This document shows positions 1 to 14,446 of a stretch of DNA of 14,446 bases, one piece after another; position 1 is the first letter of the stretch, and each line of letters starts with the position of its first letter. The position numbers and the translations under genes are program-made. Below the pieces are notes generated by a model. The model was not told where the DNA came from. It did not search any database and saw only the letters and a list, made by a program, of their open reading frames with translations. Origin of the DNA: a virus (Duplodnaviria > Heunggongvirae > Uroviricota > Caudoviricetes); the IMG/VR virus record IMGVR_UViG_3300013942_000056, positions 1 to 14,446 of that record; one strand, written 5' to 3'.

Positions 1-706
1 CATCTCGGGAGATATCCCACTGTTGCAGGCCGGATTCAAACCATTCCTGCATTTTGTTCGCCACCTGCTCCTGCAACGCGCCGCTGCGGGTCCATGCCTG
101 CAACATTTCGCTGAAAGAAGGCAGATCAAAGAAGAAGTGTTCGGAATCACGCATTACCGGGGTAGCGCCAGAAACCACCGATTTCGGCTCGATCAATTCA
201 GTCGGGCTATATGTTGCGCCGCAGACTTCACAGTTATCGCCGTATTGATCTGGCGCTTTACATTTCGGGCAGGTGCCTTTTACAAAACGATCCGGCAGGA
301 ACATGCCTTTTTCCGGGTCGTACAACTGAGAGATAGTGCGGTTTTTAATAAAACCGTTCTCTTTCAGGCGAGTATAGATAAGCTCAGACAACTGACGGTT
401 CTCTTCGCTGTGCGTCGAGTGATAGTTGTCATAGCTGATGTTAAAGCCTGCGAAATCAGTCTGGTGTTCCTGACTCATTTCGCCAATCATCTGCTCCGGT
501 GTGATACCAAGCTGCTGTGCTTTCAGCATGATCGGCGTACCGTGGGCATCGTCGGCACAGATGAAATTAACCTCGTGGCCGCGCATTCGCTGGTAACGAA
601 CCCAGACATCAGCCTGGATGTGCTCCAGCATATGGCCGAGGTGGATTGAGCCGTTAGCGTACGGCAGCGCGCACGTCACCAGAATTTTCTTCGCGACTTG
701 GGTCAT
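1..706 (-). CDS. metG: Methionyl-tRNA synthetase, N-terminal part (3' end lies beyond window start)
   Basis: Reverse complement from 706 reads ATG ACC CAA GTC GCG AAG AAA ATT CTG GTG ACG TGC GCG CTG CCG TAC GCT AAC GGC TCA ATC CAC CTC GGC CAT = [25 protein letters not shown], the known MetRS N-terminus with the class I HIGH-type motif. The plus-strand ORFs 23..649 and 54..248 are antisense shadows of this gene. Confidence 0.95.
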
Positions 707-863: not shown

Positions 864-1964
864 ATGAGCGAGTCCAAATCGCCGGATGCCCTGAGAGCAA
901 TGGTAGCCGGTACGCTGGCTAATTTTCAGCACCCAACCCTGAAACACAACCTGACTACGCTTAAAGCGTTACACCATGTTGCGTTGATGGATGACACACT
1001 GCATGTCGAACTAATCATGCCTTTCGTGTGGAATAAGCCTTTTGAAGACCTGAAAGAGCAATGTAGTGGTGATCTGCTCCGTATCACTGGAGCAAAGGCT
1101 ATTGACTGGAAGCTGTCGTACAACATTGCCACGCTTAAGCGCGTCAAAAACCAACCAGGCATTAATGGCGTTAAGAACATTATCGCCGTCAGCTCAGGCA
1201 AGGGCGGCGTGGGTAAATCCTCCACGGCGGTAAACCTGGCACTGGCGTTGGCTGCTGAAGGTGCGAAAGTTGGTATTTTGGATGCCGATATCTATGGTCC
1301 ATCAATTCCAAACATGCTGGGCGCGGAAAACCAACGTCCAACCTCACCTGACGGTACTCACATGGCACCTATCATGTCTCATGGCCTGGCAACCAACTCT
1401 ATTGGTTATCTGGTCACCGACGACAATGCAATGGTGTGGCGTGGACCGATGGCCAGCAAGGCGCTGATGCAGATGTTGCAGGAAACTCTATGGCCTGATC
1501 TGGACTATCTCGTTCTCGATATGCCGCCGGGCACTGGTGATATTCAGTTGACGCTGGCGCAGAACATTCCTGTAACTGGTGCGGTTGTGGTAACTACGCC
1601 GCAAGACATCGCGCTGATCGATGCGAAGAAAGGCATTGTGATGTTCGAAAAAGTCGAAGTGCCGGTACTGGGTATCGTCGAAAACATGAGTGTGCATATT
1701 TGCAGTAACTGCGGTCATCACGAGCCAATTTTTGGCACCGGTGGCGCACAGAAACTGGCCGAGAAATACAACACGCAGTTGTTAGGCCAAATGCCACTTC
1801 ATATCTCTCTTCGTGAAGATCTGGATAACGGAACACCAACCGTTATTAGTCGTCCAGATAGCGAATTTACGGCTATTTATCGTGACCTCGCAGATCGCGT
1901 TGCTGCCCAAATGTATTGGCAAGGTGAAGTAATACCTGGCGAAATCGCATTCCGCGCAGTGTGA
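864..1964 (+). CDS. apbC: Iron-sulfur cluster carrier ATPase Mrp/ApbC
   Basis: 366-aa ORF with AGGAG 7 nt upstream of ATG; Walker A GKGGVGKS; Mrp/NBP35-type CxxC (CSNCGHH); near-identity over long stretches to E. coli Mrp as recalled; divergent from metG as in E. coli. Confidence 0.93.
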   Translation: MSESKSPDALRAMVAGTLANFQHPTLKHNLTTLKALHHVALMDDTLHVELIMPFVWNKPFEDLKEQCSGDLLRITGAKAIDWKLSYNIATLKRVKNQPGINGVKNIIAVSSGKGGVGKSSTAVNLALALAAEGAKVGILDADIYGPSIPNMLGAENQRPTSPDGTHMAPIMSHGLATNSIGYLVTDDNAMVWRGPMASKALMQMLQETLWPDLDYLVLDMPPGTGDIQLTLAQNIPVTGAVVVTTPQDIALIDAKKGIVMFEKVEVPVLGIVENMSVHICSNCGHHEPIFGTGGAQKLAEKYNTQLLGQMPLHISLREDLDNGTPTVISRPDSEFTAIYRDLADRVAAQMYWQGEVIPGEIAFRAV

Positions 1965-2001: not shown

Positions 2002-2391
2002 CTACATCACGGGACAATCATCAAACTCGCCACTTCTTGCGTCGTTGATAATGTGAGTGATCACACCAAACACGGCATTGCTGCCCGTGCATCCATCGTC
2101 ATCCTTTGGCAATGCTTCCTTCTTACCGGTTCTTAAATCCTCCAGATGCTGACGTGGATACTTCCGGTATCTTTTTACGCGATATTCCCCATCCAGAGCG
2201 CATACAAGCAGAGAACCATCAACCGGGGTAAGTGAGGAATCGACCACCAGCAATGCACCCTGTAATATTCCCTCACGATGATGACTATCAGCTGCCCTCA
2301 TGAAGTAGGTCGCTGAAGGATGTCTAATTATCTGCTGATCAAGAGAAATACGGCTCTCAGCATAATCCGCCGCAGGAGAAGGGAAGCCCAT
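2002..2391 (-). CDS. UmuD'-like (HumD-type) S24 LexA-family peptidase lacking the N-terminal cleavable arm
   Basis: 129 aa beginning MGFPSPAADY, matching UmuD from its Cys24-Gly25 cleavage region onward (UmuD has GFPSPAADY); conserved Ser (AADSHHREG) and Lys (EYRVKRY) catalytic dyad positions; perfect SOS box directly upstream. Confidence 0.8.
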   Translation of the reverse strand: MGFPSPAADYAESRISLDQQIIRHPSATYFMRAADSHHREGILQGALLVVDSSLTPVDGSLLVCALDGEYRVKRYRKYPRQHLEDLRTGKKEALPKDDDGCTGSNAVFGVITHIINDARSGEFDDCPVM

Positions 2392-2407
2392 AATACTCGC
2401 CTCTTAA

Positions 2408-2452
2408 TACTGTATATACATACAGTATATGTTGAAGCTATATATTTTTGAA
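2408..2452 (-). promoter_or_regulatory. LexA (SOS) box overlapping a sigma70-like promoter of the UmuD'-like gene
   Basis: TACTGTATATACATACAGTA at 2408-2427 (CTGT-N8-ACAG palindrome, one centre mismatch to the consensus as recalled). Minus-strand reading gives -35 TTCAAA (plus 2447-2452), 17-nt spacer, -10 TATACT (plus 2424-2429) overlapping the box. Confidence 0.8.
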
Positions 2453-2722
2453 CTCTATCTCTTAAAAAAGATGTTAATAAGATGCTAACTATTGAAAGGC
2501 ATAAATATATACAATTCCAACAAACGTTATTTTTAACAAATTTTTTCTCTCTGTTGACTTTTGCGAAAGCCTTGTCTGGCCTAAATTGCGCGGAAGCTAC
2601 TTTTTCCTTCCTGAGTTATCCACAGAGTTATGCACTTGCATGCATAACCTATACACACTATCTTAATTCGCAAGACACTGATGTTGCGGTATTGAAGGTT
2701 CATTGGGTTAAAAATAGACATT

Positions 2723-2753
2723 AAAAAGCCCAGTTGACTAGGCTGGGCTTTTT
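2723..2753. terminator. Bidirectional intrinsic terminator-like hairpin
   Basis: AAAAAGCCCAG (2723-2733), 9-nt loop, CTGGGCTTTTT (2743-2753); perfect 11-bp complementarity with A/T runs on both sides. Confidence 0.55.
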
Positions 2754-3053
2754 AAAAGGAAACAGAGTTTGCGGCTCTGTTCCTGAGCCATAAGTATCTG
2801 GCGACTGAATTAAGATTAACCGAATGTACTGGATTCATCAAGAAACGTTGAGTGGTCATACCAGGTAATAATGACCATTTACTAAACATCGTTGTTCTCA
2901 AAGAAGATTTAAGTCCAGGTTTTTGGTGACTCTAAAACCTTACCTTAACTCGAAATCGTGCCGTAAGTATCTGGCGACTACAGATATTGCAACTGCAAAG
3001 GCAAGCCCAAAGGTATTTGCAGCTAGGCGCGATAAAACTAAGTGAGGCCTGTT

Positions 3054-3137
3054 ATGGTTAACTTACTGTTCAAAATCGTGCCGCCGATGTTCGCGATTAT
3101 CAAAGCGATCATTGAGTACGTAAACCAGCGTCCATAA
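3054..3137 (+). CDS. Putative 27-aa hydrophobic peptide MVNLLFKIVPPMFAIIKAIIEYVNQRP
   Basis: ATG preceded by GAGG at 6-nt spacing; stop TAA at 3135-3137; strong hairpin terminator 14 nt downstream; below the ORF-track size cutoff. No homolog recognised. Confidence 0.3.
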   Translation: MVNLLFKIVPPMFAIIKAIIEYVNQRP

Positions 3138-3150
3138 CGCTAGTTGCTAC

Positions 3151-3175
3151 AGGCCCCATCAAGAGCATGGGGCCT
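3151..3175 (+). terminator. Intrinsic terminator hairpin after the small ORF
   Basis: AGGCCCCAT (3151-3159), loop CAAGAGC, ATGGGGCCT (3167-3175), then CTTTAT on the plus strand. Confidence 0.6.
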
Positions 3176-3192
3176 CTTTATCGTACTATTGC

Positions 3193-5034: not shown

Positions 5035-5561
5035 CGTGCTGCCCCCTCTTTGGTGAAAATGCCTGCTGCAATGCTGTTTATGATGCTGTCAGTGCATGGA
5101 GTAGAAAGCTGGGCATCTCCAGCAATTTTCATGACCTCAACATCCGCATATCGAATACCGAGGTGTATCAGACCGGCTATACCTGACTTAAGTCGAACAT
5201 TTTCCATAAACAGATCTTTTTCCCGCTGTTTAGCGGCTTCCAACTCCATCGACAATTTTTCCAACTGCTCTTTATGCTTCTTGTATTCCTGATACGCGTG
5301 CCAAGACTGACCTTTGCGCACACTATCAGCGATATCAGCAACCTGCTCTGGTGTTAGCGTGGTCAGTGGCTGTGATGGAAAAATCATCACTTGCCCGGCA
5401 TCCCAATCAAAACCCGCCTGAATTGACTGAACCTCAACTGATGGTGTTGAACCGATGCGACCAGGCGAATGAACAACGATCGTTACATCCATATCGCGAC
5501 GATGGCTGTGGTTGTTGGACAAAATACGATTCACCAACTCAGAAAATTTGGATAATTTCAT
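5031..5561 (-). CDS. Hypothetical phage protein (176 aa; start at MKLSKF)
   Basis: The internal ATG at 5561 gives an ATGA overlap with the stop of the upstream gene and has GGAGAGAAAGAGAGA upstream; the longer ORF-track extension to 5690 would overlap the upstream gene by 130 nt. Confidence 0.55.
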
Positions 5562-5881
5562 GCTGATCTCTCTTTCTCTCCCCGGATAATTCTGTTGCAC
5601 ACATCCACACACTCGTCGCAGATGAAAACGGCGTCCCCAGCAATTAACTTTTTGACGGCGTACTGGGATTTGTTGCAGAAGCTGCAACAAAGTGTTCGCC
5701 TGACTGATAAGGATGGAGCGCCAGATGTCAGCCGCTCCATATCGTTCTTGCGACGCAATATCACACGGCTGAACTCAACCAGTTTCTCCGGGGATATCTC
5801 CTCCTCCGTAGCGAGCGTCTCTAGTCGTTCGAGTATGTTGAAGGCTTTTTCTTGGGTAATAGCAGAGTGCGATGTGGTCAT
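5558..5881 (-). CDS. Phage protein with C-terminal ClpX-type C4 zinc-finger domain (107 aa)
   Basis: C-terminal [34 protein letters not shown] closely matches the ClpX N-terminal zinc-binding domain (E. coli ClpX has [34 protein letters not shown] as recalled). Confidence 0.7.
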
Positions 5882-6279
5882 TTTCTTTCACCTTCAATGT
5901 TCGTGGCGCTGGCAAGATTGTCCTTGCGAAGAAGAGCGGCTATGCGCTTACTTCCATCCGAGATAACGCCCTCGTAATACTCACGCTGCTCGTTGAGTTT
6001 TGATTTTGCCAACTCCAGTTGTTTTGTTAGTTCCGCAATACGGCAAACATCGTTGATACGCGTTTCCTCTAATGCGTTGATCTCATCCAGTAGTGCCAGC
6101 ACGGTTTCTGGTCCGGCCAGAAATTTGAAGGCGTTGAGGGCATCAATATCAACACCGCTATCTTTAAGTTCCTGTTCGCATATCAGATCATCATCAACTG
6201 GCAACATTAACAGGCGTTCCATTGCCGGAATTGCACGCTCTGCCGCCTCACGCAGTGCCTGATAGTCAATCTTGCTCAC
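5878..6279 (-). CDS. Ead/Ea22-like coiled-coil phage protein (133 aa), GTG start
   Basis: Start codon is GTG at 6279 with AAGGAG 7 nt upstream and a GTGA overlap with the upstream stop; [17 protein letters not shown]-terminus resembles Ea22-like proteins (from memory). Confidence 0.5.
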
Positions 6280-6776
6280 TGGATGACTCCTTTACGAAGC
6301 TGTTCAGCAATACTTACGCATATCTCTGCGCCTCTAATCAGCCCCGGAACGTTCTTGTTTGGCCCAACTTCACCATCAACAAAATCAATCATCGCGTTAC
6401 GAGCCATATCCACGCCCTGCGCACGTACTTCAGCCAGAAAAGCATCGGTGGCTGGAGTCTCCGTTAATTCGCTAACCCAATTATCTCCGTGTTCCTCGGC
6501 ACACATCGCATCGAATGCTCGCTCAGATTCTTTCAGGGCTGCATTCTCCGCCGCTAATGCGTCTCTCTGCGCTCGCAACTTCTCAATTTCGGCAGCCATG
6601 TAGTAACCAACCATAGCGAAAGTGGCGAAAGGGTAGTCAGAATCATCAGGAGATACGGAGGCCATTAGCAGACCATCGTGCATGTTCTGGCTTCCATCAG
6701 TGATGGATACCGCATAAGAATCGCTGGTTTCCCGTTTATACAATACGACGACCGGGTTCTTGATTTTCTCTCTCAT
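6276..6776 (-). CDS. Ea22-like phage protein (166 aa)
   Basis: ATG at 6776 overlaps the upstream stop (TAATG); contains ETPATDAFLAEVRAQGVDMARNAMIDF, similar to a motif recalled from Ea22-like prophage proteins. Confidence 0.5.
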   Translation of the reverse strand: MREKIKNPVVVLYKRETSDSYAVSITDGSQNMHDGLLMASVSPDDSDYPFATFAMVGYYMAAEIEKLRAQRDALAAENAALKESERAFDAMCAEEHGDNWVSELTETPATDAFLAEVRAQGVDMARNAMIDFVDGEVGPNKNVPGLIRGAEICVSIAEQLRKGVIQ

Positions 6777-7318
6777 TACGATGCCTCTAACTTATCTAAC
6801 TCTTTCAGCCCTTCACGTACCGCGTTCACAATGCGTTCCAGATACTGGTATTTCGGGTTTGGTACCGTTGGCCAGTCGGCATACCACGGATCATCACCAA
6901 AGAGATTCAGCAGTTTGTTACCGACGCCGAAACAACAGCAGCTTTCTTTTACGTCATCGGTGTTTTCCGCCTCGTCCCACATTTCACGAGCCAGTACGGC
7001 GTCGATTTCTCTCTCTCTTCGTAACTTTATGATTTCTGACTTCACGAAAAGCAGATTTGCATCGTTGTCATCGTCGACCGTGCTTCGCAGTTGAGAGTCG
7101 AAATAGCCGATTAGATACTCGTTGCTGACCCGCTTAATGAACGTCTGCACATCATCACCGCCCATAGCAAACCAAGCCGCAGTCCACGCTTTTCCGTAGC
7201 AGATGATGGTGATTCTTCCCTTACCAGGTTCGTAGTTTTCAATCATCACTCGAACCGGATCGAGGCGTTCCAGATCCGTCAGCACAAAGGAAAGAACATC
7301 TATTTTTTCGACCTTCAT
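6776..7318 (-). CDS. Hypothetical phage protein (180 aa; start at MKVEKI)
   Basis: The ORF-track start at 7330 is GTG; the ATG at 7318 forms an ATGA overlap with the stop of the HD-domain gene, so it is the preferred start. Confidence 0.55.
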   Translation of the reverse strand: MKVEKIDVLSFVLTDLERLDPVRVMIENYEPGKGRITIICYGKAWTAAWFAMGGDDVQTFIKRVSNEYLIGYFDSQLRSTVDDDNDANLLFVKSEIIKLRREREIDAVLAREMWDEAENTDDVKESCCCFGVGNKLLNLFGDDPWYADWPTVPNPKYQYLERIVNAVREGLKELDKLEAS

Positions 7319-7956
7319 GCAGCCTCCCACGCGCTCCAGATCAGCGATTTGTGTTTTTCATAACGTTTGATGTGTACCGGTTTCAGAAGCGCAATACCTT
7401 CAGTGACTTTCGCCATTGCGCTTAATAGCAACGGGTGTTCTATACCTATCCTCTCCATGTACTCGACAACATCAGCGTTGGCACCAATCTCTTTGCCGTG
7501 AAAGAGTACGTCCAGCATCAGTTCTTTCTCTGCGAGGTAGACAGCTGAAAACTCGGGATCGCGACTCACGATAGAAGAGGTATTGTCGAGCAGGTCAGCC
7601 AGCTTGATCATGCGCGTCTGCATGTCGAGATTTTGCTCCAGCTCCCGGACATTGATGATGAAACGCTGTATTCGATTGCCGTCTTCTGGCCTTGCAATGT
7701 TGGTCAGAGCCTGAACCATTTCAGCTACGCGCTCACCGAAGTGATCACGAACCATCTCTATGGTTACATGGGTGTCTTCGACCACATCATGCAGAAGCGC
7801 CGCGATTTGCATCTCCACGGTTCCGTCATGCAATGCAACAATCTCTCGGACAGCAACCGGGTGGTTGATGTAGTCTTCGCCGGTATATTTTCTTTTCTGA
7901 CCAACGCCACCATGAGCGCCAGCGGCGAACATATGAGCTTCGGAAATACTAGACAT
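7315..7956 (-). CDS. HD-domain (p)ppGpp hydrolase-like protein, SpoT/RelA hydrolase-type small alarmone hydrolase (213 aa)
   Basis: HPVAVREIV ... AALLHDVVEDT matches the His...HD...ED signature of the RelA/SpoT hydrolase domain; first gene after a terminator; ACGGAG RBS. Confidence 0.7.
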   Translation of the reverse strand: MSSISEAHMFAAGAHGGVGQKRKYTGEDYINHPVAVREIVALHDGTVEMQIAALLHDVVEDTHVTIEMVRDHFGERVAEMVQALTNIARPEDGNRIQRFIINVRELEQNLDMQTRMIKLADLLDNTSSIVSRDPEFSAVYLAEKELMLDVLFHGKEIGANADVVEYMERIGIEHPLLLSAMAKVTEGIALLKPVHIKRYEKHKSLIWSAWEAA

Positions 7957-8024
7957 TCTTAACTCCGTTGTTTTCTAGTTGTGGTTATTTTCACAAATAA
8001 GAAAAGGTAGAAAACAATTTATTT

Positions 8025-8045
8025 AAGGCCACAACTTATGGCCTT
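8025..8045 (-). terminator. Intrinsic terminator separating the MTase unit from the HD-domain operon
   Basis: AAGGCCA (8025-8031), loop CAACTTA, TGGCCTT (8039-8045); minus-strand downstream flank AAATAAATTGTTTTCT; sits 30 nt after the stop of gene 8076..8456. Confidence 0.6.
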
Positions 8046-8075
8046 TATTTATTCATGCCGAAGGATTTGTAGCGT

Positions 8076-8456
8076 CTAATTGCCGGATAAAATGGGGTGA
8101 GGTGCTTGCCAGTAGGCTCCACCGGTCCATGTGAACCCCATGCGAATAAGAGTGTTTATTGCGGCTTTGGTAGACTCCGATTCGACACTGGCTTTTCGAA
8201 ACTCTTGAACCTCTTTCGCCAACTTGTATGTAATTGTGCAGGGGACGATTGCAGCCCAGCCTTTCTCATGACTGTTAATGACCATCTGGATGTGACCATC
8301 CAGAATAGGTTGATTAGGCATGTTATTGAAAATGTCTGCCTGTTTTTGAATGTGAAGAAAAAGCCTTGCCAGCTCCATTTGCTCACTACGAGACAAGGGA
8401 TTATCAAGAGGGCTTTTTGCAAAAGCGGCTATACGCTGTGCGTCAATGCCAAACAT
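8076..8456 (-). CDS. Hypothetical protein (126 aa)
   Basis: ATG at 8456 overlaps the stop of the upstream gene (TGATG), indicating translational coupling; no family recognised. Confidence 0.55.
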   Translation of the reverse strand: MFGIDAQRIAAFAKSPLDNPLSRSEQMELARLFLHIQKQADIFNNMPNQPILDGHIQMVINSHEKGWAAIVPCTITYKLAKEVQEFRKASVESESTKAAINTLIRMGFTWTGGAYWQAPHPILSGN

Positions 8457-9160
8457 CAGCGCACCTCACCATCTTTATGGCTGGAGTTAACTTCCGCCAT
8501 TAAATGTCTGACGTAATCGACAAGAGAGCCACCTGGTGGAATCTGGCATTCCTCAACTAACTGGAAGTAGATATCCGCTGCATTACGTGTATTGCTACCC
8601 GCACATATTCTTTCTTCCCGAAGTGCATGAAGCTCGTTGATCAAACGGTCACACTCTCCGTTACGCTGATCCACAACGGCCTCAAGCTCTGCGACGCGTT
8701 CACCTGGCGTCTTACCTTCTTTGCGTTGGATGGTAACGACGAAATCGCCAATTGCAGGGACGTTGTAATCCAGCTCAAGGTAGTTTTTGGCACCGCTGCG
8801 GACGAACTCACCCGCGAACATGGTGGCGAACATCGCAGAGGCCACTTCGCCGTTGAAAAGTGACTCCAGATCTAACGGAGTCCCGGCATCAAGAGCCTCT
8901 TTTGCTGTATCCATTGCATCCATGAACCGATCAAACTCATTGGCGCGCTTTTCCAGGTTTTTCCATTGCTCGCTCCAACGTTTGGCAACGAAGTCTATGA
9001 ATGTTTTCGCGGATTCATCAAAATCCCCCTCAAACTTAACGATGCCTTTATCAATAATGATCTGGCCTACCGCATCCTCTGCATAACCTTTCAATGTAAA
9101 CTTGAAAGGAAAATCAGAATGGCCTGTGACGTTAAAATGCTCTAACTGGAGGTTGTTCAT
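8456..9160 (-). CDS. Hypothetical protein (234 aa)
   Basis: ATG at 9160 preceded by AGAGAAAAACAC, the same leader type found at two other genes in this block; no family recognised. Confidence 0.55.
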   Translation of the reverse strand: MNNLQLEHFNVTGHSDFPFKFTLKGYAEDAVGQIIIDKGIVKFEGDFDESAKTFIDFVAKRWSEQWKNLEKRANEFDRFMDAMDTAKEALDAGTPLDLESLFNGEVASAMFATMFAGEFVRSGAKNYLELDYNVPAIGDFVVTIQRKEGKTPGERVAELEAVVDQRNGECDRLINELHALREERICAGSNTRNAADIYFQLVEECQIPPGGSLVDYVRHLMAEVNSSHKDGEVR

Positions 9161-9203
9161 GTGTTTTTCTCTTATCGTTTAGTAACTACATTCTTACACA
9201 AAT

Positions 9204-9221
9204 TAGGTAAGTATTTACCTA
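9204..9221 (-). terminator. Weak AT-rich hairpin immediately after the MTase stop (possible attenuator)
   Basis: TAGGTAA (9204-9210), loop GTAT, TTACCTA (9215-9221), abutting the stop codon at 9222-9224. Confidence 0.3.
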
Positions 9222-10907
9222 TCATTTAACGCGTTTGAAAACGTATACGCTGACTGTGATCCCTGTGTCTTCAAACTCGTTGGTAAACGACTTCCCTCTG
9301 GCATAAACGTAATTATCCATCGTCATCCAGTCCAGTATTGGCGCAGTGCCCGGCAATACTGCTACAAGACGCCCGCCGACTTTCAGATGCCCCAGCGCAG
9401 CCAGCGTGTGCTCTCTATGACGACCAAGCGAGTACGGCGGGTTCATAACGATTTTGTCGAACTGATAACCTACGTTGTCCTCAGACCACTTTATGAAGTC
9501 GCAGCAAATCGTGTTCGTATACCCTTTTCCGCGCAGGATATCAGCGAAGAGAGGTGCGATTTCTATGCAGGTAACATCTTCCAGATCGGCGTTGATATAG
9601 GCCAGAAGATCCCCACGTCCGGCTTGAGGCTCCAGCAGCTTCTCACCAGACTTCAATTCAGTGGCTCTGGCAACGTACTCAGCAATCAAGCGTGGGGTAG
9701 GGTAGAACTGGTGTGATTTTGTATCCGGTATTAATCCGGTAGCCACAATCGTATTTAGCGTATGGCCGATCTCATACGGGAACTGCCAGTGCTTTTTCTC
9801 CTGCACGCCGCCAATGAAGCTCAGTGTGCGCTCAAGCTCTTCCACCTGCGACTTCTGGAGAGCTGAATCAGAGAAGTACCATACGCCTTTGTCTTTGCTT
9901 AATCGCCCGTCACGAAGCGCAGTGCGAACCGGCACGGAGATCGTCTTCTGGATTAACCCGAACTGCTTTGGTGCCCGTGTTTTTGGCGCGGTGCGACATG
10001 GCGCGGGGATTGCAGCAGGCATACTGTAAGCCAGCACCTCATTCAACTTCCAGGCCACGTCAGGATGTATTTCAAAGTGAACGTTGCCGTTCTTGAACAT
10101 CTTCACGCGCATTAGATTTCCATCGACGTTCATCCAGTCACCGGTCTGGCAGTCGTTTGCCCGATACGCAGCTGATAGCACCTCAGCAGTGCGGTTGATG
10201 GTAATAAATTCTTTGTGCGCGAAGAAATGAAGCAAGACACGCAGATCGTCGATATAGTCCTCTTTGCGATAGTTCACACTAACGCTGTCCCGCCAGAAAT
10301 CAGAAATGCAGTCAGCGATTATCAGACGTTCGCTGAAACCGTTTGTCTTATTTGTCTTGTGCGCAGGACTCAGCGCCTTAAACAAGCCATACACGCGCTC
10401 AGAGAGATATTTGTGCCTGTCATTCAGCAAATTAAGCATCGTGGGTATGACCGTTTCTGCTTTGAACTCCGGTACACCAACGAACTCTTTAACCTTCATC
10501 TGGTAGCCGGTTCTGTCAGTTTTGATGACTTCCTGTTTGCCCTCTATAAACTGCTCGCGCCACTCATCTCGACGGGAAGCTGGCATGATCAGCAAAACGT
10601 TAGTCATGTCCGTGACCTTCCTCCAGTACTCGGCCCAAATATTCTGTTTCACCCATTCCAGATCGACTTTATCCAACCAACCTCGATTTAAACGCGAGCG
10701 ATCTTCATCTGGTCGATGGTTTAGTCTCAGCAGGCGATTAATCATGTTGTGGCGTTCGTCGCCATAAACGAAGTCGTGTACCTGATACATGAAGGCGATC
10801 TCTTTCTCGCACTCGGCCACAATTTCGTGGATGACGTTCATTTCCTGCCGATAGTCGATAGCAGTGTTTGAGTTGGCATCGTCGATGATGGAAAGGGCTG
10901 TATTCAT
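9222..10907 (-). CDS. 561-aa protein: unknown ~400-aa N-terminal domain fused to a C-terminal gamma-type amino-methyltransferase domain (NPPY; probable N6-adenine DNA MTase)
   Basis: C-terminal region has the SAM-binding motif LEPQAGRGDLL followed about 50 aa later by KIVMNPPY, the order found in gamma-class N6-adenine MTases and HsdM; FYPTP precedes it. NPPY is also used by HemK/PrmC protein-glutamine MTases, so the target is inferred. Confidence 0.7.
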   Translation of the reverse strand: MNTALSIIDDANSNTAIDYRQEMNVIHEIVAECEKEIAFMYQVHDFVYGDERHNMINRLLRLNHRPDEDRSRLNRGWLDKVDLEWVKQNIWAEYWRKVTDMTNVLLIMPASRRDEWREQFIEGKQEVIKTDRTGYQMKVKEFVGVPEFKAETVIPTMLNLLNDRHKYLSERVYGLFKALSPAHKTNKTNGFSERLIIADCISDFWRDSVSVNYRKEDYIDDLRVLLHFFAHKEFITINRTAEVLSAAYRANDCQTGDWMNVDGNLMRVKMFKNGNVHFEIHPDVAWKLNEVLAYSMPAAIPAPCRTAPKTRAPKQFGLIQKTISVPVRTALRDGRLSKDKGVWYFSDSALQKSQVEELERTLSFIGGVQEKKHWQFPYEIGHTLNTIVATGLIPDTKSHQFYPTPRLIAEYVARATELKSGEKLLEPQAGRGDLLAYINADLEDVTCIEIAPLFADILRGKGYTNTICCDFIKWSEDNVGYQFDKIVMNPPYSLGRHREHTLAALGHLKVGGRLVAVLPGTAPILDWMTMDNYVYARGKSFTNEFEDTGITVSVYVFKRVK

Positions 10908-10947
10908 AATTGCACCATTAAGAAGTGATTTGTTTAATGGTGCAATT
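10908..10947 (-). promoter_or_regulatory. Perfect 14-bp inverted repeat over the MTase translation initiation region
   Basis: AATTGCACCATTAA (10908-10921), 12-nt spacer, TTAATGGTGCAATT (10934-10947); the left arm directly abuts the ATG at 10907, so the RBS lies inside the stem or operator. Confidence 0.55.
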
Positions 10948-11010
10948 ATTTCAAAAATGAAAAGGTACTAAATAGAAATAAACAGGCAATCCTTCAAATA
11001 AAGGCATTGG

Positions 11011-11625
11011 CTAATCATACTTGGAGGTATTTATCACCAGAATTTTGTTTGTATAAATCTTCTTAATATCCCATGTGACATTACCGGAATACCATTGACC
11101 GTTATATACTTGGTTTCCAGTTGCACCTGTCATTGTTACATAGACAGGTCTGTCGTAATCGGTTCGTCTATAGTTATATACCCCAACCATAGCAGGCATT
11201 ACCGCACATGGATACCCCATATCTATTGTAAATTGAGGGTCAGAAATAGTGATAAGTTTCGCATCAAGGGGCATCATCTCACCGTGATACACCATTGCGC
11301 CTGCGCTGTTATACATGGCAATGCCATAGCCAGAATGTGATAACACCATATCAGAAAAAGCATAAACTGTTATTGTTCCGGGGCTACCATTTACCTGATG
11401 CAATCTGAGAGCATTGTATCCGTTACTATGCTCATGAATAAACATCATGTTCGCCTTATTACTGCTTTTTATGAAGAAAAAGCATGATTTGTTTGATGGG
11501 ATTGATGTTTGAAAAACAGAACCTTTAGATGTAGACATTGTCCCTTTATTAATCAGATTTTGCGGAGTAAATTCTGGACTCATCCACAAACTTCCATCTG
11601 ATTGAGTAATTGACATCCCGAACAT
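11011..11625 (-). CDS. Hypothetical Tyr/Asn/Gly/Thr-rich protein (204 aa), AT-rich moron
   Basis: The ORF-track start at 11682 is TTG; the ATG at 11625 has GGGGA 6 nt upstream and lies 2 nt after the stop of the upstream 93-aa ORF; the region is visibly AT-rich relative to the flanks. Confidence 0.45.
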   Translation of the reverse strand: MFGMSITQSDGSLWMSPEFTPQNLINKGTMSTSKGSVFQTSIPSNKSCFFFIKSSNKANMMFIHEHSNGYNALRLHQVNGSPGTITVYAFSDMVLSHSGYGIAMYNSAGAMVYHGEMMPLDAKLITISDPQFTIDMGYPCAVMPAMVGVYNYRRTDYDRPVYVTMTGATGNQVYNGQWYSGNVTWDIKKIYTNKILVINTSKYD

Positions 11626-12552: not shown

Positions 12553-12568
12553 AAACAAGTTGTTTTCT
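12553..12568 (-). promoter_or_regulatory. Leader motif AGAAAACAACTTGTTT (palindromic core AAACAA-C-TTGTTT), copy 1
   Basis: Lies 18 nt upstream of the ATG at 12534; near-identical copy at 13281-13297 and partial copies at 7967-7976 and 13808-13822. Confidence 0.45.
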
Positions 12569-12673: not shown

Positions 12674-12832
12674 TTAACACGTTGCTTTACGGACTAGCGG
12701 ATAAGCGAAGTAGATCGCCAGACCAATGAGGACGCCATCAGAAATGACAGACATCATCTTTCCCGTAAAATCCACCAACACCGCCATCACCAGAAGAGCA
12801 ATGACGGTCACAAGCCGGAATCTCTCAAGCAT
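12674..12832 (-). CDS. 52-aa two-helix membrane peptide translationally coupled to the TerB-like gene
   Basis: Minus-strand translation from the ATG at 12832 gives MLERFRLVTVIALLVMAVLVDFTGKMMSVISDGVLIGLAIYFAYPLVRKATC; the ATG overlaps the TerB-like stop (TAATG); two hydrophobic segments; terminator immediately downstream. Absent from the ORF track (below size cutoff). Confidence 0.5.
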   Translation of the reverse strand: MLERFRLVTVIALLVMAVLVDFTGKMMSVISDGVLIGLAIYFAYPLVRKATC

Positions 12833-13257
12833 TAGAGATAAGCATCCAGTGACAACTGAAGCGCCTGTGCGATCTTTTTCAGGGCCAGCTCTTCTTGTTC
12901 GCCAATACCGTCTTGGTCGGCAATATCAAGGCACAGACACAGTACATCTACTGCATCATTAGTCCCGGCCACATCAGCCAGCTCACGTAAAGCCTGGGCA
13001 TTAGCGCGGCGCGGTGAGGCTTCGTATTGAGCACGGATATTGGCGCTCATTTGGGCAATCTCACCAGCAAACGGAGAAAACGCAGGCAGAGCTGCAATTG
13101 TTTTCTCAAGAATGGAAATTTCCTTTGCGTCGCATGTGCCATCGGCATAGGAGATCATGTACGCGCCCCACACGGTGGCTTCAACCGCATCTCGGTTCTC
13201 CATTTTTTTGACCTCGATAACAGCTTTACGAGTTTTCTTTTTGAATAAACCTAACAT
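12832..13257 (-). CDS. TerB-like (tellurite-resistance TerB family) protein (141 aa)
   Basis: Two repeats of the TerB-like pattern: AYMISYADGTCDAKEISILEKTIAAL and LCLCLDIADQDGIGEQEELALKKIAQAL (compare TerB IAVASDGVSSEEK and IAVAKSDGNFDDDEKSAVREIALAL as recalled); AAGGAAAG RBS; leader motif upstream. Confidence 0.6.
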   Translation of the reverse strand: MLGLFKKKTRKAVIEVKKMENRDAVEATVWGAYMISYADGTCDAKEISILEKTIAALPAFSPFAGEIAQMSANIRAQYEASPRRANAQALRELADVAGTNDAVDVLCLCLDIADQDGIGEQEELALKKIAQALQLSLDAYL

Positions 13258-13280: not shown

Positions 13281-13297
13281 AAAACAAGTTGTTTTCT
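13281..13297 (-). promoter_or_regulatory. Leader motif AGAAAACAACTTGTTTT, copy 2, extended by further AACAA half-sites
   Basis: Minus strand reads CTAGAAAACAACTTGTTTTAACAAATAACAAAAGGAAAGCACATG: a 7-1-7 palindrome AAAACAA-C-TTGTTTT followed by two more AACAA repeats and the RBS. Confidence 0.45.
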
Positions 13298-13796: not shown

Positions 13797-14052
13797 TCGA
13801 ACTGTCCTTGTTGTTTTTCTCCTTCACTAAAGGCCGTGTACTTTTCGCTTCGCGTGAAGAACCAGAGGTAACAATCGCCCCCACGTTCGCAACAACTGAC
13901 GCTTGCTTATCTAAACGTTCATTCAGCAACCGAACGGCAGTCTCTAGTTCATCAAGACGTGACAGAACACGACCGCTAAATAATTCGGCCAAAATTTGAC
14001 GTAGTGAACGAGGACGTTTAGTTGCAGAAGTGAAATAGGTTTGACGTGCCAT
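13558..14052 (-). CDS. Hypothetical basic protein (start MARQTYF); true 3' end uncertain
   Basis: ATG at 14052 (the ORF-track start at 14100 is GTG inside the poly-C/G junction). First ~75 aa look protein-like (RVLSRLDELETAVRLLNERLDKQ); the remainder is Ser-rich low complexity and overlaps gene 13545..13796 in another frame. Confidence 0.35.
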   Translation of the reverse strand: MARQTYFTSATKRPRSLRQILAELFSGRVLSRLDELETAVRLLNERLDKQASVVANVGAIVTSGSSREAKSTRPLVKEKNNKDSSNGKFSKKEAETNGLRSHYSFTGDGSRSSRPEPFDAGFIHHHTSVDDNYHHSSRASCHSGWDDGGCDTSSSSSYSGSCCD

Positions 14053-14099
14053 GTGGACTCCATCCAGTGTCAGAAAGAGTTGCCCCCCGTGGCATTCCA

Positions 14100-14160
14100 C
14101 ACGCCCCCCCGGCCCCCCCCTCCCCGTTGAGGAGGGCCCAGTGGAGGGGAGCCGCCCCCC
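14100..14160. other. Poly-C/G low-complexity junction (probable chimeric assembly or sequencing artifact)
   Basis: CCCCCCC, CCCCCCCC and CCCCCC runs within 60 bp, coinciding with the end of the fmt homology and a clear rise in GC content to the right. Confidence 0.6.
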
Positions 14161-14446
14161 GGTATTTGGGCAGCAGGGACGAATGAACGTTGATGGAGCC
14201 GTAAGGTGGGGTGTTCAGAATGTCCTCCGGCAGGATGCGGCCATAGGCCGCCACCACGATCAGCTCCGGATGCAGCTCCCGCACCAGGGCCAGGGCCGTG
14301 CCGTCCCGCATTTTCGTGGGCTGATACACGGACAGCCCCTGGGCCAGGGCGTATTCCTTCACCGGTGAAAAGGCCAGCTTATGCCCCCGGTTTTTGGGGC
14401 GGTCCGGCTGGGTGAACACGCCGCAGATCTCGTGCCCGTCCTCCAC
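14120..14446 (-). CDS. fmt: Methionyl-tRNA formyltransferase fragment (residues ~25-135 only), GC-rich, non-enterobacterial codon usage
   Basis: Minus-strand translation [24 protein letters not shown] ... VVAAYGRILPEDIL ... INVHSSLLPKYRGAAPLHWALLNGE aligns with the Fmt N-terminal domain (E. coli [45 protein letters not shown]). Homology stops at the poly-G tract; the N-terminus lies beyond the window end. Confidence 0.75.

What the first reader, a model, noticed from the sequence alone, without database searches (positions are those of the whole stretch)
9222..10947. Large phage protein fusing an unknown ~400-aa domain to an NPPY amino-methyltransferase, heading a three-gene unit
The C-terminal ~160 aa carry the SAM-binding motif (LEPQAGRGDLL) followed by NPPY, the gamma-class N6-adenine MTase arrangement, but the N-terminal ~400 aa match nothing I recognise. 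It is followed by two translationally coupled unknown genes (8456..9160, 8076..8456) and closed by its own terminator (8025-8045), forming a discrete module in a prophage early region. Such modules are typically anti-restriction or self-protection methylases or parts of modification-based defence or exclusion systems; the uncharacterised N-terminal domain and partners make this the best candidate here for an undescribed system.
Basis: partly seen in the sequence, partly recalled or inferred. Interest (0 to 1): 0.65.

Follow-up and report, generated by a model that had tools for sequence, protein, structure and literature searches.

The report
Orphan DUF4942-fused adenine methyltransferase of phage-plasmid
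This gene encodes a stand-alone amino-methyltransferase (most likely acting on DNA adenine) from a widespread but untested family of mobile-element proteins, carried here on an SSU5-like phage-plasmid and probably shielding its DNA from host restriction; the proposed new three-gene system is not supported.

Summary
The ORF is real: 9222..10907 (-), 561 aa. The window is an SSU5/pHCM2-like phage-plasmid, not an integrated prophage. The C-terminal ~165 aa hold a complete NPPY amino-methyltransferase core, closest to METTL5 and M.TaqI by fold. The "unknown" N-terminus contains Pfam DUF4942. This N-terminus-plus-MTase layout is the fixed architecture of a large family: 611 clusters at 50% identity, nearly all listed members 500-580 aa. 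The family occurs in phage-plasmids, IncHI2 plasmids and lambdoid prophages. The N-terminal model is confident (pLDDT 87) but has no solved structural relative. Both halves also occur alone in the leading (first-transferred) regions of conjugative plasmids. The DUF4942 core is a ~280-aa protein next to oriT (YdiA-type, a published leading-region-enriched family). The MTase core is a 187-aa protein beside ssb in R100. The two downstream genes are Ea22/Eaa-type accessory genes. They accompany the MTase only in one sub-clade (283 and 608 of 2611 plasmids), and no nuclease or defence partner is present. Verdict: a member of a known but uncharacterised orphan-MTase family, most likely anti-restriction, and not a new three-gene system. 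The function of DUF4942 remains open.

The parts
9222..10907 (-). Gene for the 561-aa DUF4942-MTase protein (stop codon 9222-9224)
   Evidence: ORF. Full-length match to phrog_6263. Orthologues 99-33% identical over the full length. Annotated 'DUF4942 domain-containing protein' or 'DNA methyltransferase' in Cyrano, SSU5 and RefSeq plasmids.
10659..10907 (-). Residues 1-83: variable, acidic, helical N-terminal segment
   Evidence: No invariant columns and 11% identity to distant homologues; pI 5.0. Helices 15-48 and 52-62 in the models.
9999..10658 (-). Residues 84-303: conserved DUF4942 core (YdiA-like module)
9723..9998 (-). Residues 304-395: variable, basic alpha/beta linker subdomain (candidate substrate-contact or specificity element)
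   Evidence: pI 9.7, high column entropy and only 7% invariant columns. Confidently modelled (pLDDT 85-95). The role is inferred.
9225..9722 (-). Residues 396-561: minimal class I SAM-dependent NPPY amino-MTase core
9603..9635 (-). Motif I (SAM binding), LEPQAGRGDLL
   Evidence: Read. P427, A429, G430 and G432 are invariant.
9432..9443 (-). Motif IV (catalytic), NPPY
   Evidence: Read. N489, P490 and P491 are invariant; position 492 is Y or F.
10906..10949 (-). Perfect 16-bp inverted repeat (12-nt spacer) overlapping the AUG and the only SD-like GGUG of the MTase gene
   Evidence: the repeat finder pair I19, 100% complementary. RNA hairpin -20.6 kcal/mol, z -6.3, 0 of 200 shuffles as stable. 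Orthologues carry the palindrome AGAAAACAATTTGTTT at the same place. Function not tested.
8456..9160 (-). Downstream gene 2 (234 aa), an Ead/Ea22-type mosaic accessory protein; not a conserved partner
   Evidence: phrog_8364; its N-terminus matches phrog_3451. Its C-terminal ~75 aa match Ead/Ea22/Eaa1/DUF551 proteins of HK620-type lambdoid phages. Found in 608 plasmids against 2611 with the MTase N-terminus.
8076..8456 (-). Downstream gene 3 (126 aa), 'Eaa-like', overlapping gene 2 by 1 nt; not a conserved partner
   Evidence: phrog_10451, no Pfam, NCBIfam or PADLOC match. Restricted to phage-plasmids of E. coli, Shigella, Salmonella, Enterobacter and Citrobacter: 283 plasmids and 6 phage records.
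8025..8045 (.). Short GC hairpin between gene 3 and the HD-domain gene; a weak candidate terminator
   Evidence: 7-bp stem found by the scanner with its T-tail on the + strand. RNA fold on the gene strand -12.8 kcal/mol, z -1.27.

Best explanation
The gene encodes an orphan (restriction-enzyme-less) SAM-dependent amino-methyltransferase of the DUF4942-MTase family, most likely an N6-adenine DNA methyltransferase. It is carried in the accessory region of an SSU5/pHCM2-like phage-plasmid. The C-terminal 165 residues are a complete minimal catalytic core: motif X QFYPTP, motif I EPQAGRG, an acidic motif II, motif III DF and motif IV NPPY. This core has no target-recognition domain of its own. Substrate engagement must therefore come from the N-terminal 395 residues. 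Those comprise a strongly conserved DUF4942 core of unknown fold and a variable, basic 90-residue subdomain that is the best candidate for the specificity or contact element. By methylating the element's own DNA, and incidentally the host's, the enzyme would protect it from restriction when it enters or establishes in a new host. This is the accepted role of orphan MTases on phages and plasmids. It works alone: the two downstream Ea22/Eaa-type genes are neighbours by descent in one sub-clade, not functional partners. What is shown: the fold and motifs, the family architecture, the distribution, the lack of conserved partners, and the leading-region location of both modules in conjugative plasmids. 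What is inferred: DNA adenine as substrate, the anti-restriction role, and the roles of the N-terminal subdomains.
Confidence: 0.55

Rival explanations
1. Bifunctional anti-defence protein. The DUF4942 core has its own activity independent of methylation, for example binding or inhibiting a host restriction or defence component, or binding incoming DNA. The MTase is a second, fused line of protection.
For: The DUF4942 core exists as an autonomous ~280-aa protein right next to oriT in at least 5000 plasmids, 4572 of them conjugative. It is a top-25 leading-region-enriched family. Its conservation, with invariant His, Asp, Asn and Arg residues (H183, T185, N186, D221, R223, D262, H277, H281, N289), equals that of the catalytic domain. 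Its fold is confidently predicted yet unmatched.
Against: No activity is known, and there is no similarity to any known anti-restriction protein or enzyme fold. In the fused family the two parts are almost never separated, which fits cooperation on one substrate better than two independent activities.
Confidence: 0.15
2. Regulatory (epigenetic) methyltransferase of the phage-plasmid. Methylation controls the element's own replication, packaging or lysis-lysogeny gene expression rather than protecting it from restriction.
For: Orphan MTases such as Dam and CcrM have regulatory roles (introduction of PMC7736820). The gene lies in a long co-oriented array with recurring palindromic motifs upstream of genes. 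A strong hairpin over its own start codon suggests tight control of expression.
Against: The family is spread over unrelated element types (phage-plasmids, IncHI2 plasmids, lambdoid prophages). That argues for a generic benefit rather than an element-specific circuit. No target motif is known.
Confidence: 0.12
3. Not a DNA enzyme. It is an RNA (rRNA or tRNA m6A) or protein-glutamine methyltransferase that reprograms host translation.
Against: Genomic company is consistently DNA-related: other DNA MTases, ssb, antirestriction genes. DNA-MTase HMMs score better than RNA-MTase HMMs (where ksgA has E 0.007, far below its cut-off). Relatives of the domain are embedded in giant phage proteins of 770-3900 aa (phrogs), one of which is annotated as a putative internal virion polymerase (phiC725A).
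Confidence: 0.1
4. One reading: the MTase plus the two downstream genes form a discrete three-gene modification-based defence, exclusion or anti-restriction system.
For: In this element the three genes are co-oriented. Genes 2 and 3 overlap by 1 nt. A hairpin and a promoter-like repeated motif (7987-8014, similar to 10945-10972) bracket the trio. Gene 2 stays adjacent to the MTase down to ~62% identity in some Klebsiella phage-plasmids.
Against: Only 283 (gene 3) and 608 (gene 2) plasmids carry these genes, against 2611 with the MTase N-terminus. They are absent beside orthologues in other Klebsiella and Providencia phage-plasmids, IncHI2 plasmids and prophages. Gene 2 is a mosaic of Ea22-type segments that occur in lambdoid phages, matched there as Ead/Ea22/Eaa1/DUF551 genes. 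No defence or nuclease domains were found. The terminator is statistically weak.
Confidence: 0.05

Closest known systems
DUF4942-MTase family (Pfam PF13708 plus a class I MTase; RefSeq 'DUF4942 domain-containing protein'; SSU5 gp095 'DNA methyltransferase'; pHCM2 'YdiA')
   Same: Full-length orthology: 99% to E. coli phage-plasmid copies, 92% to SSU5 gp095 by tblastn, and down to 33% in a Variovorax prophage, with identical domain order and motifs.
   Different: Nothing of substance; this is a member. The family itself has no experimentally defined substrate, motif or role.
Stand-alone YdiA-type DUF4942 proteins next to oriT of IncI1, MOBP and other conjugative plasmids (leading-region families 24 and 76 of Samuel & Burstein 2024, PMC11541004)
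   Same: They are homologous to residues ~84-303 (hhalign probability 99.3%). They are carried on mobile elements and are associated with anti-defence islands.
   Different: They are ~280 aa with no MTase domain and sit as the first genes transferred. The window protein is fused to an MTase and sits on a non-conjugative phage-plasmid. I linked the published families to this protein through the Pfam domain and the 'YdiA' name, not by direct alignment to their representatives.
187-aa 'class I SAM-dependent methyltransferase' beside ssb in the leading region of R100 and other conjugative plasmids
   Same: It is homologous to the C-terminal catalytic core: 33% identity over 121 aa, with the same QF..P, EPxAGxG and NPP(Y/F) motifs.
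   Different: It has no N-terminal domain. The gene upstream of it (DUF3560) is unrelated to DUF4942. It is also uncharacterised.
M.TaqI / M.BseCI / CamA (gamma-class N6-adenine DNA MTases)
   Different: Those enzymes carry a C-terminal target-recognition domain. Here the protein ends ~70 aa after NPPY and the extra 395 aa are N-terminal, with an unrelated, unmatched fold.
M.EcoGIX / M.BceJIII (plasmid leading-region, single-strand-specific, promiscuous m6A MTases that protect entering DNA)
   Same: They are a functional analogy: orphan MTases on mobile elements shown to block restriction during establishment (PMC7736820).
   Different: They belong to a different structural class (beta class, DPPY motif), so they are not homologues of this NPPY enzyme.
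mad2, the MTase of the MADS defence system (PADLOC)
   Same: It is the best-scoring defence-database profile for the catalytic core (E 5e-15, residues 394-523).
   Different: Only the MTase domain matches. The N-terminus does not, and no other MADS component is nearby.

Membership tests
Pfam DUF4942 (PF13708) | HMM match above the gathering threshold | tested here: met
   74 bits against a cut-off of 25, residues 140-295. All 68 sampled homologues match.
DUF4942-MTase fusion family | N-terminal DUF4942 region followed by a C-terminal NPPY class I MTase in one ~500-580-aa chain | tested here: met
   Full-length alignment with 26 homologues. The N-terminal query retrieves proteins that are almost all 500-580 aa.
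N6-adenine / amino-MTase (gamma-type motif order) | Rossmann MTase fold with motif order X, I, II, III, IV and a catalytic (N/D)PP(Y/F) | tested here: met
N6-adenine / amino-MTase (gamma-type motif order) | Target-recognition domain C-terminal to the catalytic domain | tested here: not met
   Only ~70 residues follow NPPY and they belong to the Rossmann core. The additional domains are N-terminal.
N6-adenine DNA MTase | Transfers methyl to N6 of adenine in DNA | not testable with these tools
   This needs a methylome or in vitro assay. No published data were found.
Restriction-modification system | Cognate restriction endonuclease (or specificity/R subunits) encoded adjacently | tested here: not met
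   No nuclease or R-M hit in any window ORF. The contexts of orthologues lack one too.
Multi-gene defence system (e.g. MADS) | Conserved co-occurrence with the system's other components | tested here: not met
   Only the MTase core matches mad2. No other PADLOC hits.
Proposed three-gene module (MTase + 8456..9160 + 8076..8456) | The three genes co-occur across the MTase family | tested here: not met
   2611, 608 and 283 plasmids respectively. Both genes are absent in L004-L009 and L011.
M.EcoGIX-type single-strand-specific MTases | Beta-class MTase with DPPY motif IV | tested here: not met
   The window enzyme has NPPY and the gamma-type order. M.EcoGIX is described as beta class with DPPY (PMC7736820).
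Leading-region anti-defence genes of conjugative elements | Located within the first genes after oriT, on the transferred-strand orientation | tested here: not met
   The window is a phage-plasmid, and the closest plasmid carriers of these genes are overwhelmingly typed non-mobilizable. Only its two modules, as separate proteins, have that location.

The most novel reading that the evidence does not exclude
DUF4942 is a new-fold functional module of mobile-element establishment. Its stand-alone YdiA form is among the first genes to enter a recipient in thousands of conjugative plasmids. The obligate fusion seen here is a 'Rosetta stone' showing that DUF4942 acts on the same substrate as an adenine methyltransferase. 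It might load onto incoming (possibly single-stranded) DNA, or onto a host restriction complex, so that a TRD-less catalytic core can methylate broadly. If so, the phage-plasmid enzyme would be a promiscuous, entry-phase protective methylase of a mechanistically new type.
Probability: 0.2. Interest if true: 0.6.

Novelty: new member of a known kind. Interest (0 to 1): 0.3.

Why it matters
As a gene it is ordinary. Matching DNA is found in 242 of 5426 complete E. coli genomes, mostly at 95% identity or more, and the family is already annotated. The useful outcome is negative: there is no new three-gene system here. The residual value lies in the domain. DUF4942/YdiA is one of the largest uncharacterised families enriched in plasmid leading regions. 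It has a confidently predicted but unmatched fold, and this family shows it permanently fused to a minimal adenine-MTase core. That gives a concrete, testable handle on what YdiA-type proteins do during establishment of plasmids and phage-plasmids that spread resistance genes.

Tried and rejected

2. Split-gene analogy. DUF3560, the gene upstream of the R100 187-aa MTase, is not related to DUF4942 (hhalign probability 0.3%).

3. The 'N-6 DNA methylase' in the Serratia leading region is not a relative of this catalytic core.

4. Membership in the M.EcoGIX family was rejected: it is a different class with DPPY.

5. Literature. 'DUF4942' gives four passing mentions and 'PF13708' none. No methylome data for SSU5-like elements were found in the ST131 methylome paper or the ETEC long-read paper. 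YdiA is not mentioned in the pESBL transmission or early-conjugation expression papers.

6. The HerB/YfjB preprint looked relevant because that gene lies near ssb, but it describes a ParB-like protein, not this MTase.

7. Terminator and promoter. The consensus scan found fewer sites than expected by chance and none on the gene strand.

8. A degenerate pattern for the shared upstream motif found nothing. The repeat finder did recover the similarity (family D12).

Full report
WHAT IS THERE

The window is a stretch of an SSU5/pHCM2-like phage-plasmid. Region 7900-11100 is 97-99.6% identical to ~108-kb E. coli plasmids and to Escherichia phages Cyrano and CMS-2020a. It is 88.5% identical over 69% of its length to Salmonella phage SSU5. 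Of 254 matching places in complete E. coli genomes, 252 are on plasmids. It is therefore not an integrated prophage early region. It is the long, co-oriented accessory array of a phage-plasmid.

The ORF is 9222..10907 on the minus strand and encodes 561 aa. Homologues begin at the same methionine.

THE C-TERMINUS

Residues 396-561 are a complete minimal class I SAM-dependent amino-methyltransferase core. Across 27 homologues down to 33% identity, the following are invariant or nearly so:
- QFYPTP (motif X)
- EPxAGxG (motif I; LEPQAGRGDLL at nt 9603-9635)
- E449 (motif II)
- DF (motif III)
- NPP(Y/F) (motif IV; nt 9432-9443)

A family profile finds M.TaqI as the best PDB sequence (E 9e-6). PADLOC gives mad2 (5e-15) and type II MTase models. 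Fold alone does not distinguish DNA from RNA substrates.

THE N-TERMINUS

It is not unrecognisable. Pfam DUF4942 matches residues 140-295 (74 bits, cut-off 25). The whole protein matches phrog_6263 'DNA methyltransferase'. RefSeq names it 'DUF4942 domain-containing protein', SSU5 annotates it as 'DNA methyltransferase', and a pHCM2 copy is called YdiA.

A search of 1.84 billion representative proteins with residues 1-395 alone found 611 clusters (415 at E of 1e-10 or better). Nearly all listed ones are 500-580 aa. The N-terminus-plus-MTase layout is therefore the fixed architecture of a large family, not a peculiar fusion.

Region by region:

| Residues | Character | Invariant columns | Identity to distant homologues |
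|---|---|---|---|
| 1-83 | variable, acidic (pI 5.0) | 0% | 11% |
| 84-303 (DUF4942 core) | as conserved as the catalytic domain | 16% | 40% |
| 304-395 | variable, basic (pI 9.7) | 7% | 30% |
| 396-561 (MTase) | conserved | 16% | 41% |

A conserved core with invariant H183, T185, N186, D221, R223, D262, H277, H281 and N289 does not look like a hypervariable target-recognition domain. The basic variable subdomain (304-395) is the better candidate for a specificity element. That assignment is an inference.

BOTH HALVES ALSO OCCUR ALONE

The catalytic core is 33% identical to a 187-aa MTase that lies beside ssb in the leading region of R100, among antirestriction and DUF1380 genes. The MTase-domain query matched at least 5000 plasmid records, most of them conjugative and below 60% identity. 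In the sampled rows of that group, IncF-type and similar plasmids carry this same short 'class I SAM-dependent methyltransferase'.

The DUF4942 core (residues ~84-303) aligns with hhalign probability 99.3% (E 1e-20) to a 288-aa stand-alone protein of a Serratia MOBP plasmid. That protein lies between psiB/psiA and the relaxase genes. An IncI1-type plasmid has a 282-aa version directly next to mobC-nikA-nikB. The stand-alone protein hits at least 5000 plasmids, 4572 of them conjugative.

Samuel & Burstein (Nature 2024, PMC11541004), Supplementary file 3, list two families annotated 'Uncharacterized; DUF4942; Methyltransferase' with YdiA names:
- Family 24: 2171 members, FDR p = 0, median position 1 from oriT, transferred-strand orientation.
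- Family 76: 551 members, p = 2e-100, median position 6.

Both are among the 100 largest leading-region-enriched families. The paper reads leading-region orphan MTases as protection from restriction. I tie those families to this protein through the Pfam domain and the name, not by direct alignment.

THE THREE-GENE UNIT

In this element the layout is as described, with corrections:
- The MTase stop is 61 nt before gene 2.
- Genes 2 and 3 overlap by one base.
- The 8025-8045 hairpin is weak: -12.8 kcal/mol, z -1.27. Its T-tail is on the opposite strand.

Comparative evidence rejects a functional module. tblastn finds genes 2 and 3 beside the MTase only in E. coli phage-plasmids and SSU5. It does not find them in two Klebsiella phage-plasmids (MTase 62% identical), a Providencia phage-plasmid (45%), or two lambdoid prophages (33-37%). 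An IncHI2 plasmid also lacks them.

Gene 2 does persist next to the MTase in some Klebsiella phage-plasmids at ~62% identity. That is what vertical synteny within one backbone predicts.

In PLSDB the N-terminal domain hits 2611 plasmids, of which 840 are at 60% identity or more. Gene 2 hits 608 and gene 3 hits 283.

Gene 2 is a mosaic of Ea22-type segments. Its N-terminus matches phrog_3451, whose other half matches ORF 6776..7330. Its C-terminus matches Ead/Ea22/Eaa1/DUF551 proteins of HK620-type phages. Gene 3 has no match outside phrog_10451.

No ORF in the window matches a nuclease, an R-M subunit or a PADLOC defence component other than the MTase itself. In the two lambdoid prophages the orthologue sits in the early-right operon. 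In one it is directly followed by an N6_N4 MTase. In the other an N6_N4 MTase lies three genes upstream and a protein with a weak Pfam DNA_methylase (C5-type) hit lies two genes downstream. This is the classic setting of phage orphan methylases.

MOST LIKELY MECHANISM

The protein is an orphan, self-sufficient amino-methyltransferase, most probably acting on adenine N6 in DNA. It modifies the element's DNA so that restriction systems of a new host do not cut it. The N-terminal region supplies substrate engagement for a catalytic core that has no recognition domain of its own. I give this a confidence of 0.55.

Rivals:
- DUF4942 has an autonomous anti-defence activity and the protein is bifunctional (0.15).
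- The enzyme has a regulatory, epigenetic role in the element's own life cycle (0.12).
- The substrate is RNA or protein (0.10). The METTL5 and KsgA similarity keeps this alive; the DNA-related genomic company argues against it.
- The three-gene system (0.05).

No experimental data exist for any family member. The functional analogue with data, M.EcoGIX, belongs to a different MTase class (beta, DPPY).

NOVELTY AND SCORE

This is a new member, in practice one of hundreds of near-identical copies, of a known and annotated but uncharacterised kind. The claimed undescribed system is not there. What remains open is the function of the DUF4942/YdiA module, for which this fused family offers a testable clue. 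Interest: 0.3.

Noticed in passing
window 10906-10949 (-): A perfect 16-bp inverted repeat (ATAATTGCACCATTAA, 12-nt spacer, TTAATGGTGCAATTAT) overlaps the AUG and the only SD-like GGUG of the MTase gene. As RNA it folds at -20.6 kcal/mol (z -6.3). It could be a translational repressor stem or a palindromic operator.
   Followed up: partly
window 12553-12568 (-), 13282-13297 (-), 8009-8024 (+); L002 and L007 upstream of the MTase orthologues: A palindromic motif, AGAAAACAA(N)TTGTTT, recurs about 15-25 nt upstream of start codons of several accessory genes (5 matches against 0.66 expected). In SSU5 and a Klebsiella phage-plasmid it occupies the position taken here by the 16-bp inverted repeat. 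It is possibly a shared operator or translation-control site of SSU5-like elements.
   Followed up: partly
window 7987-8014 and 10945-10972: A 28-nt direct repeat, 75% identical (…GAAAAGGTA…), lies upstream of both the MTase gene and the HD-domain gene. It could be a shared promoter or regulatory element. The sigma-70 scan found nothing on the gene strand.
   Followed up: no
window 7315-7956 (-): A 213-aa HD_4 protein resembles the hydrolase domain of RelA/SpoT (TIGR00691, E 1.4e-24). It looks like a small alarmone hydrolase. It is syntenic with the MTase in SSU5 and lies upstream of it in Klebsiella phage-plasmids.
   Followed up: no
window 1-706 (-), 864-1964 (+), 14018-14446 (-): The element carries host-like translation and metabolism genes: an N-terminal fragment of methionyl-tRNA synthetase (tRNA-synt_1g, E 6e-96), an ApbC/NUBPL-type P-loop ATPase, and a Formyl_trans_N fragment at the other window edge. 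In the close relatives L001-L003 the gene annotated at the corresponding position is RNase H, not a formyltransferase.
   Followed up: partly
window 8456-9160, 6776-7330, 5878-6279 (-): Ea22-type mosaicism. The N-terminus of gene 2 and ORF 6776..7330 match the two halves of one PHROG (phrog_3451). ORF 5878..6279 is a Pfam Ead_Ea22 protein. This suggests recombination among ea-type accessory genes.
   Followed up: partly
window 5558-5881 (-): A small 107-aa protein carries a ClpX-type C4 zinc finger (PF06689, E 1.2e-15) but has no ClpX ATPase domain.
   Followed up: no
window 12832-13257 and 12674-12832 (-): A TerB-like gene and a DUF3927 gene form an abutting pair, annotated as P1 TciA/TciB-like in phage Cyrano.
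   Followed up: no
window 2002-2391 (-): An S24 peptidase, UmuD/HumD-like protein (129 aa), lies next to an AT-rich, largely non-coding stretch (about 2400-3190, GC 0.38).
   Followed up: no
L013 5950-6261; L007 7897-8217; L003 3638-3937: DUF5983 genes lie within about 9.5 kb of DUF4942 genes in three unrelated contexts: a conjugative-plasmid leading region and phage-plasmids of Klebsiella and E. coli. In L013 a DUF932 gene is also adjacent.
   Followed up: no
phage records (e.g. NC_073674.1 53646-53987) and phrogs 15406/11358/10691: Relatives of the minimal MTase core are embedded in giant phage proteins of 770-3900 aa, one of them annotated as a putative internal virion polymerase. This hints that this MTase type may also be delivered with the DNA by some phages.
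   Followed up: no
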